Position numbers: made by a program. This document shows positions 1 to 33,000 of a DNA stretch of 64,000 bases, piece after piece (position 1 is the first letter of the stretch; each line of letters opens with the position of its first letter). The DNA comes from Phallusia mammillata (Eukaryota). Location: positions 8,494,001 through 8,558,000 of the forward strand of contig OZ281496.1 in assembly GCA_965637545.1 (NCBI GenBank), read 5' to 3'.

Positions 1-3000
1 TGATAAGCTTTATACAGCCCAGACACAAGTCTTGCAAACTGTTTTCGTTTTAAGATTGTAGTTGGATAGTTTACCAAAAAACGTTACTGCCGTTTTCCAA
101 TAAATTCCAAAAACGATCAAATACAAACACAAAACTGCATAAAGTTAAGTGTTGCCAATTTTGTTTTTTATAAAGCTTGTTTAGTGTAGGTTTTTTATGC
201 GTTTAGAGAAATATCGTTTTTAATAGAGTTGTTTGTGTTACCTATCGGAACTTAGCTAAATGTTGGGCTGCCATGACGTGTAGTTTCAATAGAGTTTTTA
301 TATATTATAAGTGTTGATTTTGTTGTAACTTATACTATGTTTTATTCTGTTCGCCACAAACTTGCTTTGAGTAAAGACTAAATCAAACGACACTGACGAA
401 ACTGAGACATAGTTTCACTTCTCGTTTTACAATTTATCAAGCCCGTTTGTAAATGAGCATCGAGGACGCTCTTCGCTTGCTTCTATGTTAATATAAAGTG
501 GAATATAAAGCTCATTAACTGTTTTAACTTCGGGCTTGCACAGGTTTAAACGTTAGGTCGAACGAATTCTGGACAAGAAACAAATATTTTTATCAGTGTA
601 ATGGGTTTTTCGGGTCCACTTGGGTTCGTACCGTCTTCGAGCTTTATTTGTTTTCGACAAACGGGCTTGATTCGGGCCTGACGTCAAATTCTCTGTCAGC
701 AATTTTTCAATGAAATGAGTTGCAAACAACTGTGCTTGAACAAAACGAATTTCTCGACTTGGCGCCTGTGTGCAAGGCATGCAAGGGAAGGAAACAATCG
801 CACGGCCAATTGATTTTCATTAGCGAGTGCGTACTGGGCACAAACCAAATGTAAAGTCATTTGACCTAATTCTTCCAGTTTGCTCGTTTATCGTTGGGTG
901 CGGCCAAGCTTCATTAAAGCCAAACATTTTAAAGCAGTTATTTCAAAGCAACTAACGTATTGTGCTGAGTTGTGTTGAATCTATTTAGCTTTCTGAAAGA
1001 GCATATAGCGACACAATGACATTAAACAATCACTAGGCCGACAATAGCTGCACAATGTTGAAATGTAAATGACACAATAGGTAGATATGGCTACGCGCGC
1101 TGCAGCTAAGTCTGCACTGTATCGTAAAGATTTAGGTAGTGGCAGCTTATAAGGGAGTGATCTTTGCGCATTATTTGATTTCTTGTTTGTCAGGGTTTGT
1201 TTGCAACTAAAGGAGATAAATTTGGTAAGATTTCGTGAGTAATACGTAAGTATTTGCATTACAATTGTAATGTACAGCTTGTTAAAGGGACCACAACAGG
1301 TTTTGTTTTGAATTCAATAGGCGTAGTTTTGTTTGTGTTTTACCTCACAGTTTGTGGTTAACTTAAAAAACAAGCCCTCATTCTAAGGACTTGAAGTGGT
1401 CAAAACCTATATATTGTAAAAAAAAGAAGCAACACAAACAAGTGAAGTTGTTTAAACAACTATTGAAACGAGAAAAAGTAATATTTTGGTATTGACGAAG
1501 ATAAAATGGACACTTGTGTGAAAACTGCAACCAAAGAATTTAAATGCAATTTGTGTAAAAAATCATTTACGCGGAAGTATACTCTGAAACAACATGTTGC
1601 TACACACAGTGGAGAAAAACGCTATCAATGTGAGGTATGTCAGAAAAAAGTTTTCACTAAAGCACTTTTGAAAGCACACATTCTGACACACTCCGAAAGA
1701 AAAAGACCGTATAAGTGTGAAATTTGTGAAAAAGGTTTTCTCTCAGCTTCTGAATTGAAAAGACACGAGGTATCTCACACTGGCGTTAAACCATACAGTT
1801 GCGACATTTGCGAAAAGAAGTTTCAAACTTCAGGACATGTAAAGCAACATATGAGATGCCATTTAGAGGAACGACCATACAAGTGTCAGCACTGCGAAAA
1901 AAGTTACACCCAATCTTCCCACCTTTCAAGACACATGCTTCATCACACCAAGGAACAACGACACAAGTGTAGAGTGTGATGTATGTATTTACCGCTAGAT
2001 GTCGTCCCTGAGTTATGACGTCACGTTTCGTATATAACCGTGTACCGCGTCTTAAACGTGGCAGTCAATACAGGTAACCGCTTAAAGGTGTGTGCGTTCA
2101 TGACATGGTGTCAGAAGTGGTTTTATAAAATGGAAGGTTCGTTCTCACTGCCTGAAGCTATGCAATGGAGTGGCAATGTGTCACAAAACTGGGTTAAGTT
2201 TATCAGGGGATTTAGGCTTTATTTGACAGCTGTTGGTTATGACGGAAAGGCTGCAAAAGTTAAAACATCTATGTTGCTCCACGTGTTGGGAGAGCAAGGT
2301 CAAACCATCCACTCAACATTTAAATTTGAAGAAGGACAAGAAATGCACTTTGAAACTGTGGTCAATGCCTTCGAAAGCTACTGTTGTCCGAGGAAGAATA
2401 TCACCAGCGAGCGATACAGGTTTTTTTCTAGCAATCAAAATGATGGTGAAAGAATAGATGTTTTTATAACCGATTTAAAAAAAACTGTCTAAAAGCTGTG
2501 ATTTCGGTGAACTTTGCGACTCATTAATCCGAGACAAAATTATTATTGGTATCAAGTGTGTTCAACTTCGTCAAAGTTTGCTGCGGGAAGAGGAACTAAC
2601 GCTTGAAAAAGCTATTAAAATGTGCATAACAAACGAAACAGTAAGATCGCAAATGACAATGTTTCGATCAACAAATTCTACAAGTTGTAGCTTGGATGCT
2701 GTTCAACGCGAACCACGTGGTAATCAATTACCAGCGCCTCGAGTTTGCAGATTCTGTGCCTTGCGACATGACGTCAGAGCGTGTCCTGCCTGGGGAAGGC
2801 GATGCTTGAAGTGTGGTGGAAGAAACCACTTCGCTCGATGTTGCAGTGCAGCTAATCACCCGCAAGCGCAACGCGCGGATACAATTCAGACGTACAACAT
2901 GCAATCTGTAAGTACTACTAGTTCACCAAAAGATTGGCTTGTTGACATTTTTGTGCTTTCATGTACACTTCGTTTTAAGATAGACACGGGAGCCCAAGTA

Positions 3001-30000: not shown

Positions 30001-33000
30001 ATTTAATGAAAGGTAGGTTTTAGAAGTTTTTTTTCAAAAAAATAACTTTTAAATAGGTGCTTGGGCTCTTTGCGCCACCTAGAAAAATTTAGTTAAAAGC
30101 GCTGCTGACGTGAGTTATGGTGACAGGAGATTGTCCATTTCAAAAAAGTGCAATGTCGTGCTGCTTTAATAACTATCTCTGCTTTTTGCGCCACCCATTG
30201 GCAAAATGGTCTGAAGTTAGTATTTCCGACACATTTTTCGAGTATATACGGGAATGCTTACAAACGGGCTTGATTCGGTACAGCGCCTTCAAAACGATAC
30301 CTTCAGCACAAAAAAGATTTTTGACTTTCAGCAGCCATCTTGGATGCGGATTTTAATACCACGCAACTTCAACCTGTACTGATATAGAAACGTATGAATC
30401 AAGTTGTCAGTAGAGATGCCTTAAATCAAGACATACTAAATTTTAACAATACAACCGTTAAACGTTAGTCGAACCGAACATCAACAATATCCGGATGTTT
30501 GTGCAATTAATTTATTTTTAACAAGACTTCATATACAATGTGAGAAGCAGATACCGAAAATGCTCATAGACTTCGATAATTAATAGATCGTTTCAAGAAA
30601 AAGACTATGCAACAGAAAACTAGGGTGCATGAAATATGCGAACAATTAGTTTCGAACCAATAATCGTGTTATGAAACAAACAATTCAGTGTTCGATATCA
30701 ACCGTTTCACGCCTTGTCAAAAGTGACAGTGGATACTTCAATATATCGTTCCAAGTTTCAAATGTTAAAACAAGAGCTAATAGGTTACAAGCAATTGCTG
30801 CTGCAAATAGCTGTACCTCAAGATACAAGTTAGCAAACATTGATACAATATCGGTTGAAATGCAAAGAAGTGACATAAAAGCCGTTCGTTTCATTATTTG
30901 TAACCCGGCAATAATATTTACTCCTTGCTCAGCGCATTTAAATCGATCGAGGAAAAGAAATAAAAGCAAGCACTGTCCTGCTATATCAATGTTTTTTCTG
31001 ACAAAGGCCACTTAACATTGCCTTCAAAATGTGTACACCCAAACCCATTGATATCTTTGTGTAATATAGTATGCTAATGCATGCAGTAAATGTTCCAAAA
31101 TTCAGGCAGACAATGCTCGACCAACTTAGGACTTTAATCCGAAATGCAAAATCATCAAGCCAATAGAGACCTTGTGAGTCGAAACATTGTACAAAGAAGT
31201 GACATAAAAGCGGTTCGTTTCATCATTTGTAACCCGGCAATAATGTTTACTCCTTGCTGGGCGCATTTAAATAGATAGAGGAAAAGAAAAAAAAGTATGC
31301 ACTGGCCTGCAAAATCAATTGCAATTCCTGCTAACAACGGCCACGGTACAATTCCACCAACAAAAGTACATCCATATCCCAATAACTGAAATCTTTGAGT
31401 AATGGAGTATCCAATGCAAGAAGTAAATACGCTCAAACACAGAAAGGCAATGCTCGACTAACTTAGTACTTTAATCCAAGCTTTGTAAATGTGATTCACA
31501 TGAGAACTTTTACAGAAACAGCGTAGTTTAAACCACAGAAATGTGTAAAGTGTGAATGCACTAAAACCTAATACCATGGGCATGATTCTTGTTAGGATTT
31601 GACATGTAAATGAAGATTGTGGTTTGTAACCCACAATGATACAGATATGTCAAGCACAGTCAGGGGTGGATCTAGAAAAAATTTAAGGGGGCTGTCCAAC
31701 AATTATTTGGAAAATTTCCTAGTGCAACACTGATGTTATACAATATTATTTGGGTATTCCCCTTTCTAAAAAACGTCATAAGCTTGACGTCACTTACGCA
31801 CCAAAAAATCTACGGTTGCAAGGTATCATTTTGAAAATACGCAGTGCTCAATGCAAAACAGAAATTTGGGGTTGGAAAAAACTGTTTTACTATCATGGAC
31901 GCACAAAGCTTGTGATGTTGCATTGTTTATAATGACGCATTAAGCGGCAGTGTGCTTTGTCCAGAATTGCAAGCAGGCCCAAACCCGAAAGTACAAGACC
32001 TCAACCTAAATGCTTTCGTATTGTCAGCGCAATAAACTCTTTATTTTAACCCTTACGTCACAATAGTCTAATAGATAAGCCAATACAAAACGATGAAGGC
32101 ACATAGCTTTGAGACAACGACTCCCTGTAATCACGCAACGGTAAACGGAACGTTTGGCCTATTTAATCTACGCACAACTTTTTCAAAATTAGAGTCGTGG
32201 AAATTTTACCAATTTTCTGAGGGGGGTGTCCAAACACCCCCGTCTAGATCCGCCCATGAGCACAGTGTATATGTTTACTAAGATAGACGCCACACTTGTC
32301 AACAAATACATAATCCGTGTATTCCTATCTCCACTTTTGTACTTGTTGTTTGAGAAACCACAGGCAAATATTGCAATAGTCAAGTGAATAGTAAAGCATA
32401 GTGCAGTTGTATCTATCGTCAGCCAAGCAATTCTTTGAGAAGAAAACTTCGCGGCGCCCGTGCTTCTTTCTTTAATGTCCGTGAGCTTGGAAGTGTTTGA
32501 TTCAGTTTCAGCAAATTCCAAAACCTATACTACGGTTCTAAAACAAAATAAGACTTAATATTCTGTCCTAAAAGTCACAACCTTCTATATAATGAACAGA
32601 AAAAAAATGAATTGATCAGTCCGCCAACTTGTGCCACAAACTGTTTTGCGCTCCATAATGTCAAAAACGTGCGCATCCATTTTCGGATTGGTGATTTATC
32701 AGTGCTATAGTGACGCAATATGTGATTTTTTGAAGCGAAATAAACTTAATTCAACTCAACTATTTAGAAAACATCGAAAGGTGCCTAAAAAGGTATGATG
32801 TCTTTACGGTTTATTGATGCCAAACCAAGCCTGGTTTCTGCACAAACTAGTGACGTTGGAAAAAATGAAACCTCTGTTATGGGCATCACAGCATATACAA
32901 AAAGCCACACTTCCTTCTTCAAACAATAAACGTCAGAAAACTTCTCCTCATTGTGAAGTGGATCGCTCTGACAAATCAAACGAAACAACAACGCACATAG

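What the first reader, a model, noticed from the sequence alone, without database searches (positions are those of the whole stretch)
1..32600. A ZnF + 7TM two-family cassette duplicated in tandem at least three times
Units A (1-~12.5 kb), B (14762-~22 kb) and C (~27.2-32.6 kb) share the same order: conserved flank, 11-finger ZnF (+), conserved spacer blocks, then 7TM genes (-). Pieces of the same flanks recur at ~52420-52700 and ~59560-59830 beside other 7TM copies. The amplified unit is therefore a putative transcription factor plus a receptor. Co-regulation is an inference; simple hitchhiking is equally possible.
Basis: partly seen in the sequence, partly recalled or inferred. Interest (0 to 1): 0.65.

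Follow-up and report, generated by a model that had tools for sequence, protein, structure and literature searches.

The report
Zinc-finger gene co-duplicated inside a membrane-protein array
A block holding one zinc-finger gene and two genes for a seven-helix membrane protein of no known family was copied three times in tandem, but most copies are now broken, so it looks like ordinary gene-cluster turnover, not a regulator-receptor module.

Summary
Self-BLAST gives three same-strand, collinear units: A 1-12806 (cut by the window edge), B 14762-22302 and C 27183-32987. Each has a conserved flank, a C2H2 zinc-finger gene (+), spacer blocks and two 7-helix genes (-). The flank pieces near 52.4 and 59.6 kb are real.

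Only 1 of 3 ZnF copies is intact (B, 329 aa). A is split by a young LTR retroelement and has a 1-nt deletion. C has two frameshifts. Only 4 of 12 7-helix copies or fragments in the window are intact. No unit keeps both an intact ZnF and an intact 7-helix gene.

Divergence is mosaic. A-B K2P is 0.04-0.06 over the ZnF part but 0.13-0.26 over the rest. The 7-helix tree rejects simple whole-unit copying (AU p <= 2e-4).

The 7-helix protein matches no Pfam or PDB family. "Receptor" rests on topology alone.

Best reading: a ZnF gene hitchhiking in a TE-rich, birth-and-death tandem array, with later gene conversion or re-duplication. Co-regulation has no support here and could not be tested. The organism is unidentified and I do not take it for human. 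Interest is low to moderate.

The parts
1..12806 (+). Unit A (left edge cut by the window): flank, ZnF-A, spacer, T1, T2 and the upstream module of T2
   Evidence: Collinear with B and C
544..889 (+). Conserved non-coding block upstream of the ZnF; putative promoter or 5' UTR exon. Copies at 15308-15652 and 27183-27541.
   Evidence: Aligns in all three units at 77-78% while its neighbours do not align to C. No shared ORF, and the indels are not in threes. Its function is inferred.
1506..1976 (+). ZnF-A, 5' part (aa 1-157, fingers 1-5)
   Evidence: tblastn 96% to ZnF-B
1975..5546 (+). LTR retroelement inserted in finger 6 of ZnF-A. Its pol ORF is 2578-5397 (939 aa).
   Evidence: 137-nt direct repeats, 99% identical. 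Pfam RVT_1, RNase H, integrase. The A-B alignments overlap by 7 nt of B at the insertion site.
5553..6059 (+). ZnF-A, 3' part (aa 160-329). It has a 1-nt deletion about 30 nt after the insertion and a 3-nt deletion in finger 10.
9215..10102 (-). T1, intact 7-helix gene, 295 aa
   Evidence: ORF; hydropathy
10103..10453 (-). Conserved 7-helix upstream module (example at T1). Also found without a gene body at 48128-48418 and with a 29-codon stub at 54880-55249.
11561..12448 (-). T2, intact 7-helix gene, 295 aa
14044..14430 (+). T3, inverted 5' fragment (aa 1-130), head-to-head with T2
14762..22302 (+). Unit B
16280..17269 (+). ZnF-B, the only intact copy: 329 aa, 10 canonical C2H2 fingers plus 1 atypical finger, no other domain
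19603..19864 (-). T4, fragment (aa 152-241, frameshifted)
21034..21921 (-). T5, full-length pseudogene with two in-frame stops (codons 28 and 210)
27183..32987 (+). Unit C
28095..29086 (+). ZnF-C, pseudogene read in three frames (two frameshifts), about 80% aa identity to B
30688..31138 (-). T6, fragment (aa 143-295, frameshifted)
31191..31634 (-). T7, fragment (aa 90-237)
32258..32503 (-). T8, fragment (aa 2-83). It lies about 600 nt from T7, a segment with no match elsewhere in the window.
50832..51719 (+). T9, intact 7-helix gene outside the units, 295 aa
52427..52673 (.). Piece of the ZnF-downstream spacer beside T10
52733..53505 (-). T10, frameshifted and truncated pseudogene
55142..55228 (+). 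T11, 29-codon stub with its upstream module
59555..59790 (.). Piece of the ZnF-upstream flank, 290-525 nt upstream of T12
60081..60962 (+). T12, intact 7-helix gene outside the units, 293 aa from its first ATG

Best explanation
This is a fast-turnover tandem array of an orphan 7-helix membrane-protein gene. There are 12 copies or fragments in 64 kb, riddled with transposons.

One block of the array carried a C2H2 zinc-finger gene plus two 7-helix genes. That block was copied in direct orientation to give three units. The likely mechanism is unequal crossing-over between the 80%-identical 2.3-kb 7-helix sub-repeats; this step is inferred.

The ZnF was a working gene that rode along. Afterwards the copies decayed independently: TE insertion, frameshifts, stops and deletions. 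The ZnF-bearing part of units A and B was later homogenised by gene conversion or re-duplicated. 7-helix copies exchanged sequence with, or were replaced by, paralogues outside the units.

Shown: the anatomy, the lesions, the mosaic divergence, the tree discordance, and purifying selection on both families. Inferred: the recombination mechanism and the absence of a functional ZnF-7-helix coupling.
For: Collinearity: same-strand chains of 8, 11 and 8 blocks.

Decay:
- 1 of 3 ZnF copies is intact.
- 4 of 12 7-helix loci are intact.
- Unit A keeps two 7-helix genes but a dead ZnF. Unit B keeps the ZnF but only dead 7-helix copies. Unit C keeps nothing intact.

The ZnF was functional after copying:
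- NG86 omega 0.31 for A-B, with 13 of 30 differences synonymous against 18.9% expected (binomial p 0.0019).
- Omega 0.27 for C-B, with 56 of 134 synonymous (p 1e-9).

7-helix pairs have omega 0.37-0.65.

Mosaic age: A-B K2P is 0.037 and 0.056 over 1-1978 and 5543-7003. It is 0.19-0.26 in the spacer and 0.125 at T2/T5. A-C and B-C are 0.15-0.30 in blocks of 100 nt or more.

Tree: (T2_A,T5_B) 100/97 and, less firmly, (T4_B,T6_C) 78/79 fit unit copying. But T1_A groups with T9 (84/99), and T7/T8_C fall in a weakly supported group (63/92) with T3, T10 and T12.

AU tests reject the positional clades: p 1.8e-4 and 8e-6.

TEs of five or more kinds lie in and between the units (Pfam).

Promoters are not shared: the ZnF (+) and the nearest 7-helix gene (-) are tail-to-tail, about 3.1 kb apart in unit A.
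Against: - Nothing here tests function directly; there are no expression or binding data.
- The ZnF stayed under purifying selection through two rounds of copying. Its upstream block is conserved in all three units. Retention of extra copies was therefore not immediately neutral.
- Short pieces of ZnF flank and spacer lie beside T10, beside T12 and near 47.9-48.5 kb. The association between the two gene sets may therefore be older and wider than three units.
- The AU-test groups were defined from synteny, but I ran the tests after seeing the tree.
- Fragments give short alignments: T4 fills 30% of columns and T8 fills 28%.
Confidence: 0.65

Rival explanations
1. Functional regulator-receptor cassette. 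Each ZnF copy controls, activates, silences or helps choose the adjacent 7-helix genes, and selection favoured copying them together.
For: - The same order recurs three times.
- ZnF omega is about 0.3.
- C-B substitutions are enriched at predicted DNA-contact positions: 15 of 40 against 50 of 289 elsewhere, Fisher p 0.005. Paralogues diverging in target would give this pattern.
- A conserved upstream module of about 350 nt exists at 7-helix genes.
Against: - No unit keeps both partners intact.
- 2 of the 4 intact 7-helix genes (T9, T12) have no ZnF coding sequence near them.
- ZnF and 7-helix genes are convergent with separate upstream regions.
- The 7-helix tree is discordant with unit position.
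- The contact positions come from the canonical C2H2 numbering, which I recalled rather than obtained from a tool. ZnF-C is a pseudogene.
Confidence: 0.08
2. The ZnF is the driver. It belongs to a rapidly evolving tandem ZnF family, for example one that targets transposons as KRAB-ZNFs do in tetrapods. Its own birth-and-death dynamics produced the duplications, and the 7-helix genes are the passengers.
For: - Contact-residue enrichment.
- Framework and zinc ligands are fully kept: 0 of 40 ligands changed in A or C.
- The neighbourhood is very TE-rich.
- C2H2 ZnFs and GPCR-like genes are the two most abundant families in tandem clusters, according to passages of PMC3338513.
Against: - There are only 3 ZnF loci against 12 7-helix loci in the window.
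- The 7-helix sub-repeat also duplicates on its own (T1/T2).
- No repressor domain was found in the ORF (Pfam).
- No ZnF target can be named.
Confidence: 0.12
3. Part of the pattern is an assembly artefact. The 94-96% identical A and B ZnF segments would be two haplotypes of one locus laid in tandem.
For: - A-B mismatch is only 2-5% over 1-6038.
- The LTR insertion and small indels are the kind of difference seen between haplotypes.
- Unit A runs off the window, so its left context is unseen.
Against: - There are no N runs in the window.
- Identity falls stepwise to K2P about 0.2 within the same collinear unit. A haplotype copy would not do this.
- Unit C and the 7-helix parts are clearly old paralogues.
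Confidence: 0.05

Closest known systems
Mammalian tandem clusters in which C2H2/KRAB zinc-finger genes and olfactory or vomeronasal receptor genes expand side by side
   Same: - Two unrelated, lineage-specific families expand by local tandem duplication in one region, with many pseudogenes.
- Passages of PMC3338513 name GPCR-like and C2H2 ZnF domains as the most abundant in tandem clusters.
- The abstract of PMC2443715 (listing) describes species-specific duplication and loss of ZnF clusters.
- That such clusters are physically interspersed on human chromosome 19 is recalled, not seen in a call.
   Different: - No KRAB or other effector domain is in this ORF.
- The membrane protein is not an OR, V1R or V2R and has no Pfam family.
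- The two families here share one repeating unit of about 11-12 kb instead of forming adjacent blocks.
- The genome is not mammal-like: CpG o/e is 0.88, and Pao-type and GIY-YIG-bearing elements are present.
Birth-and-death evolution of chemoreceptor gene families
   Same: - Tandem copies, a mix of intact genes, recent pseudogenes and fragments, and omega below 1.
[quoted passage not shown]
   Different: A chemosensory role for this 7-helix family is not shown. Gene conversion or exchange between copies is also needed to explain the mosaic divergence and the tree.
ZNF274-type zinc-finger proteins that anchor clusters of lineage-specific genes in repressive compartments
   Same: A precedent that a zinc-finger protein can act on whole clusters of tandem lineage-specific genes. 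Only the abstract of PMC11397430 was seen, in the listing.
   Different: ZNF274 carries KRAB and SCAN domains and is not co-duplicated with its targets. Nothing here shows binding.

Membership tests
C2H2 zinc-finger proteins | Tandem C-X2-4-C-X12-H-X3-5-H fingers recognised by the Pfam zf-C2H2 / zf-H2C2_2 models | tested here: met
   ZnF-B: zf-H2C2_2 E 1.2e-61 with 10 stretches; zf-C2H2 E 2.1e-45. Ten canonical fingers by pattern.
KRAB zinc-finger proteins | N-terminal KRAB repressor domain | tested here: not met
   No KRAB, SCAN or BTB hit in the 329-aa ORF. The ORF begins 13 residues before finger 1. The conserved upstream block has no shared ORF. An unseen far-upstream coding exon is not excluded.
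Rhodopsin-like (class A) GPCRs | Match to the family profile (Pfam 7tm_1) or to solved class A structures | tested here: not met
   0 Pfam families at E<=0.01 for 4 of 4 proteins. Only chance-level hits at E<=10. 0 PDB sequences at E<=10.
Rhodopsin-like (class A) GPCRs | Seven membrane helices, N-terminus outside, Cys pair linking the top of helix 3 to the second outer loop | tested here: inconclusive
   - Seven hydrophobic segments and seven long helices in a model with pLDDT 37.
- N7-L8-T9 sequon in 4 of 4, with Cys100 and Cys178 (179 in T9, same alignment column) invariant.
- K+R is richer in loops 1-2, 3-4 and 5-6, but loop 4-5 also has 2-4.
- The topology is inferred, not predicted by a dedicated tool.
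Rhodopsin-like (class A) GPCRs | DRY motif after helix 3 and NPxxY in helix 7 (motifs recalled) | tested here: not met
   The consensus after helix 3 reads FLWFKQRCFYKS, and helix 7 reads CNLxALVLTFET. Neither motif is present.
Nematode serpentine receptor class gamma (Srg) | Match to the Pfam Srg model | tested here: not met
   The name comes only from the automatic label of the third-nearest Atlas cluster, score 0.94. No Srg or other serpentine Pfam model matched at E<=10.
DUF7703 (fungal membrane proteins) | Match to PF24802 | tested here: not met
   Atlas named-only lead at 0.86 with 133-138 shared features. PF24802 is not among the hits at E<=10.
Tandem segmental duplication / birth-and-death gene array | Direct-orientation collinear repeat units with intact and decayed copies | tested here: met
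LTR retrotransposon (Ty3/gypsy-like order of domains) | Flanking direct LTRs, a short duplication of the target, and a pol with RT, RNase H, then integrase | tested here: met
   137-nt repeats, 99% identical. 7-nt overlap of the flanking alignments on B. RVT_1 188-309, RNase H 375-505, integrase 619-778.

The most novel reading that the evidence does not exclude
The 7-helix genes are a so far undescribed, lineage-specific receptor family of a non-vertebrate animal, possibly an invertebrate chordate. The co-duplicated ZnF is their dedicated cis-linked regulator. Each new ZnF copy drifts at its DNA-contact residues along with the upstream module of its neighbours. That would be a built-in 'one factor, one receptor block' way of diversifying receptor expression.
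Probability: 0.05. Interest if true: 0.8.

Novelty: new member of a known kind. Interest (0 to 1): 0.3.

Why it matters
If the reading is right, the locus is a clean small-scale example of how unrelated neighbours get amplified together in a fast-evolving array. It also shows how gene conversion and transposon hits then blur the history. That is a caution against reading repeated gene order as functional coupling.

The more useful lead is the 7-helix family itself. It is tandemly expanded, under purifying selection and GPCR-like in topology, yet it is outside every Pfam and PDB family tested here. If it turns out to be a chemoreceptor family, it would add to the receptor repertoire of its lineage.

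Tried and rejected
- Structure route to classify the 7-helix protein. AlphaFold2 on the four intact paralogues gave mean pLDDT 37.4 and pTM 0.27. I ran no fold search, because matches to such a model are meaningless. The second structure job was not used; only close paralogues were available to deepen the alignment.
- Profile search of PDB sequences at E<=10: 0 hits. Pfam at E<=10: only Neurensin (0.021), DUF7672 and Pmp3, each in 1 of 4 members. I treat these as chance.
- Atlas. The nearest clusters are unnamed chordate proteins (0.94-0.96). The named-only search gave fungal DUF7703 at 0.86. These are leads only.
- Inside/outside conservation test on the 7-helix family. Invariant columns were 39 of 73 inside, 24 of 55 outside and 91 of 167 in helices. 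The difference is not significant (Fisher p 0.29 and 0.89).
- Upstream coding exon for the ZnF. No frame is open in all three copies of the 544-889 block.
- CRE-like motif TGACGTMA. There were 20 strand-matches at 13 distinct positions, against 3.87 expected. They fall in LTRs, ZnF upstream blocks, two 7-helix upstream modules and elsewhere. Palindromes and paralogous copies inflate the count, so I do not use it as evidence of co-regulation.
- Rfam and tRNA scans found only one tRNA-like element.
- Pfam on 8 further ORFs of the TE-rich half: nothing except a sub-threshold VHP hit.
- Predicting a ZnF binding motif from a recognition code and scanning the upstream modules. I left this out because it would rest on rules recalled from memory and on unusual contact residues.
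- Literature gave general context only. The phrase 'serpentine receptor class gamma' occurs in 0 papers of the library. Searches turned up no description of this family. Text searches cannot find a family by sequence, so this does not show that it is unpublished.
The bacterial/archaeal genome scan and the phage, plasmid and E. coli collections were not used, because the locus is eukaryotic.
The two halves of ZnF-A and the three frames of ZnF-C were always analysed piece by piece.

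
Full report
**What the window is.** The window has no N runs and a GC content of about 0.34-0.44. CpG observed/expected is 0.88.

It is full of eukaryotic transposons (Pfam):
- an LTR retroelement with RT, RNase H and integrase at 1975-5546;
- hAT-type elements at 24183-26382 and 42633-44517;
- a PIF/Harbinger DDE_Tnp_4 ORF at 37052-37975;
- a GIY-YIG ORF at 50038-50526;
- a Pao-type peptidase ORF at 58026-58568;
- a gag-RT pair on the minus strand at 61399-63590.

I do not take this contig for human. Intact retroelement ORFs, Pao-type and GIY-YIG elements and the near-absence of CpG depletion all speak against it. 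The organism stays unidentified. The Atlas puts the nearest clusters of the membrane protein in Chordata. With the high CpG ratio, that suggests a non-vertebrate, but this is inference only.

**The observation.** Self-blastn and collinear chaining confirm three direct-orientation units.

- A-B has 8 blocks. 1-1978 = 14762-16752 at 94.4%. 5543-7003 = 16746-18161 at 88.8%. Five shorter blocks follow at 72-79%, then 11553-12762 = 21026-22258 at 83.7%.
- A-C has 11 blocks between 544-12762 and 27183-32981.
- B-C has 8 blocks.
- Unit A starts at the window edge, so 14762 is not a true unit boundary.
- The A-to-B period is 14761 nt, which includes the LTR element of about 3.6 kb.
- The B-to-C offset is about 11.9 kb, which includes a hAT element.
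Further spacer pieces lie at 47860-47960 and 59377-59442.

**Gene content.** tblastn finds the zinc-finger coding sequence at three loci only.

- ZnF-B (16280-17269) is intact. It is 329 aa, with ten canonical C2H2 fingers plus one atypical C-terminal finger and no other Pfam domain.
- ZnF-A is split in finger 6 by the LTR element, whose 137-nt LTRs are 99% identical. It also has a 1-nt deletion about 30 nt downstream and a 3-nt deletion in finger 10. A 24-nt deletion removes what looks like the splice donor of a 5' UTR intron, which is kept in B and C (the intron is inferred).
- ZnF-C needs three reading frames.

The membrane-protein gene occurs at 12 loci.

- Intact: T1 9215-10102, T2 11561-12448, T9 50832-51719 and T12 60081-60962.
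- Broken: T5 has two in-frame stops, and T10 is frameshifted and truncated.
- Fragments: T3, T4, T6, T7, T8 and T11.
- T1 and T2 form a 2.3-kb tandem sub-repeat (80.5%), and each unit once held two copies.
- In unit C, the order T8 (aa 2-83), T7 (aa 90-237), T6 (aa 143-295) fits a deletion that fused two neighbouring genes plus a 600-nt insertion (inferred).
- No unit retains both an intact ZnF and an intact membrane-protein gene.

**What the membrane protein is.**

- The four intact copies are 70-72% identical to T1.
- They have seven hydrophobic segments, a conserved N-L-T sequon at residues 7-9, and invariant Cys100 and Cys178 (Cys179 in T9, the same alignment column) at the start of helix 3 and in the fourth loop.
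- Basic residues favour loops 1-2, 3-4 and 5-6, though loop 4-5 also carries 2-4. This fits a GPCR-like topology with the N-terminus outside.
- No family membership could be shown. Pfam gives nothing at E<=0.01 for 4 of 4 and only chance-level hits at E<=10. A profile search of PDB sequences gives 0 hits at E<=10.
- There is no DRY or NPxxY motif (the motifs are recalled).
- AlphaFold2 on the four paralogues gave pLDDT 37, so no fold search was run.
- The Atlas finds unnamed chordate clusters at 0.94-0.96, one auto-labelled 'Serpentine receptor class gamma'. Among named clusters it finds only fungal DUF7703 at 0.86.
- 'Receptor' is therefore a reasonable guess, not a result.

**Selection.**

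- NG86 estimates give ZnF A-B dS 0.072, dN 0.022 and omega 0.31. C-B gives dS 0.39 and omega 0.27.
- Synonymous changes exceed the neutral share of 18.9%: 13 of 30 (p 0.0019) and 56 of 134 (p 1e-9).
- The ZnF was therefore a constrained gene through most of its post-duplication history, and the lesions are late.
- All 40 zinc ligands are kept in A and C.
- C-B replacements are enriched at the canonical contact positions -1, 2, 3 and 6: 15 of 40 against 50 of 289, Fisher p 0.005. The position numbering is recalled. This is the usual pattern of diverging tandem ZnF paralogues.
- The A-B contact count (3 of 39) is inflated, because finger 6 of A is read out of frame after the 1-nt deletion.
- Membrane-protein pairs have dS 0.15-0.43 and omega 0.37-0.65.
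- Conservation does not differ between predicted inner and outer parts.

**History.**

- Divergence along the unit is not uniform. A-B K2P is 0.037 and 0.056 over the ZnF-bearing 3.4 kb. Mismatch there is 2-5% up to 6038 and 9-11% towards 7003.
- It then jumps to 0.19-0.26 in the spacer and is 0.125 at T2/T5.
- A-C and B-C are 0.15-0.30 in blocks of 100 nt or more.
- So the three units are about equally old, and the ZnF part of A and B was later homogenised by gene conversion or replaced by a younger partial duplication.
- The maximum-likelihood tree of 11 membrane-protein rows (T11 was left out as too short) supports (T2_A,T5_B) at 100/97, and joins them with T4_B and T6_C at 96/96. The pair (T4_B,T6_C) itself gets 78/79.
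- It puts T1_A with T9 (84/99). T7 and T8 of unit C fall in a weakly supported group (63/92) with T3, T10 and T12.
- AU tests reject a clade of the position-1 copies (p 1.8e-4). They also reject a clade of the position-2 copies (p 8e-6) and a clade of all in-unit copies (p 2e-6). The groups come from synteny, but I ran the tests after seeing the tree.
- The ZnF relationship ((A,B),C) is thus matched by only part of the membrane-protein tree.

**Regulatory anatomy.**

- A 350-nt non-coding block about 620-960 nt upstream of the ZnF start is kept in all three units.
- Membrane-protein genes share a proximal region of about 100-135 nt. Most also share a distal module out to about 350-400 nt. This module also occurs without a gene body at 48128-48418 and with a 29-codon stub at 54880-55249.
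- The ZnF and the nearest membrane-protein gene are tail-to-tail, with a 3.1-kb gap in unit A.
- The ZnF-B upstream block is separated from the T2 upstream region by the inverted T3 fragment. No promoter is shared.

**Verdict.** The pattern is real, but it is best explained as ordinary tandem segmental duplication and birth-and-death turnover. A ZnF gene was caught in the repeat unit. Co-regulation is not supported by anything measurable here, and several features speak against a selected cassette. Expression, binding and genome-wide linkage remain untested because homologue searches and the genome were not available. The literature seen gives only general context on ZnF and receptor tandem clusters: listings and abstracts, and passages of PMC3338513. 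Supplementary files were not consulted.

Noticed in passing
window 1975-5546: A compact LTR retroelement of about 3.6 kb, with 137-nt LTRs 99% identical, a 150-aa upstream ORF with no Pfam hit and an open 939-aa pol. It looks recently active. It sits inside finger 6 of ZnF-A.
   Followed up: partly
window 19954-20029: A tRNA-Ser(GGA)-like sequence (Rfam tRNA 44.6 bits; ARAGORN) lies between T4 and T5 in unit B, with no counterpart in unit A. It could be a SINE head, a tRNA pseudogene or a real tRNA gene.
   Followed up: partly
window 18798-19283 and 50453-50772: A palindromic element of about 485 nt (arms 161 nt, 95.7% complementary) lies in the spacer of unit B. A 91%-identical copy ends 60 nt upstream of the T9 start codon. 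It looks like a foldback or MITE-type insertion.
   Followed up: partly
window 8959-13308: T1 and T2 with their flanks are a 2.3-kb tandem sub-repeat (80.5% over 2046 nt) nested inside unit A.
   Followed up: yes
window 30688-32503: In unit C the fragments T8 (aa 2-83), T7 (aa 90-237) and T6 (aa 143-295) lie head to tail. The arrangement suggests two neighbouring genes fused by a deletion. A 600-nt segment at 31661-32257 has no match elsewhere in the window.
   Followed up: partly
window 24183-26382 and 42633-44517: Two hAT-type transposase regions (DUF4371 plus hAT dimerisation domain; the second also has a Spin-doc-type zinc finger). Each is split into two overlapping ORFs, which suggests one frameshift each.
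   Followed up: no
window 37019-37975: A PIF/Harbinger-type DDE_Tnp_4 transposase ORF (E 1.3e-33).
   Followed up: no
window 50038-50526: An ORF with a GIY-YIG nuclease domain lies about 300 nt upstream of T9. It may be the remnant of a Penelope-like element; that attribution is recalled, not tested.
   Followed up: no
window 56000-64000: GC skew rises to +0.10 to +0.18 and AT skew falls to -0.17 over the last 8 kb. This region holds Pao-type fragments and a minus-strand gag-RT element. The cause is not examined.
   Followed up: no
window, 13 positions (e.g. 679, 15442, 2016, 5451, 48398, 53622): The CRE-like octamer TGACGTMA gives 20 strand-matches against 3.87 expected from shuffles. Sites fall in both LTRs, the ZnF upstream block of A and B, and two 7-helix upstream modules. 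The count is inflated by palindromes and paralogous copies.
   Followed up: partly
whole window: CpG observed/expected is 0.88 and GpC is 1.17. There is no vertebrate-style CpG depletion.
   Followed up: no
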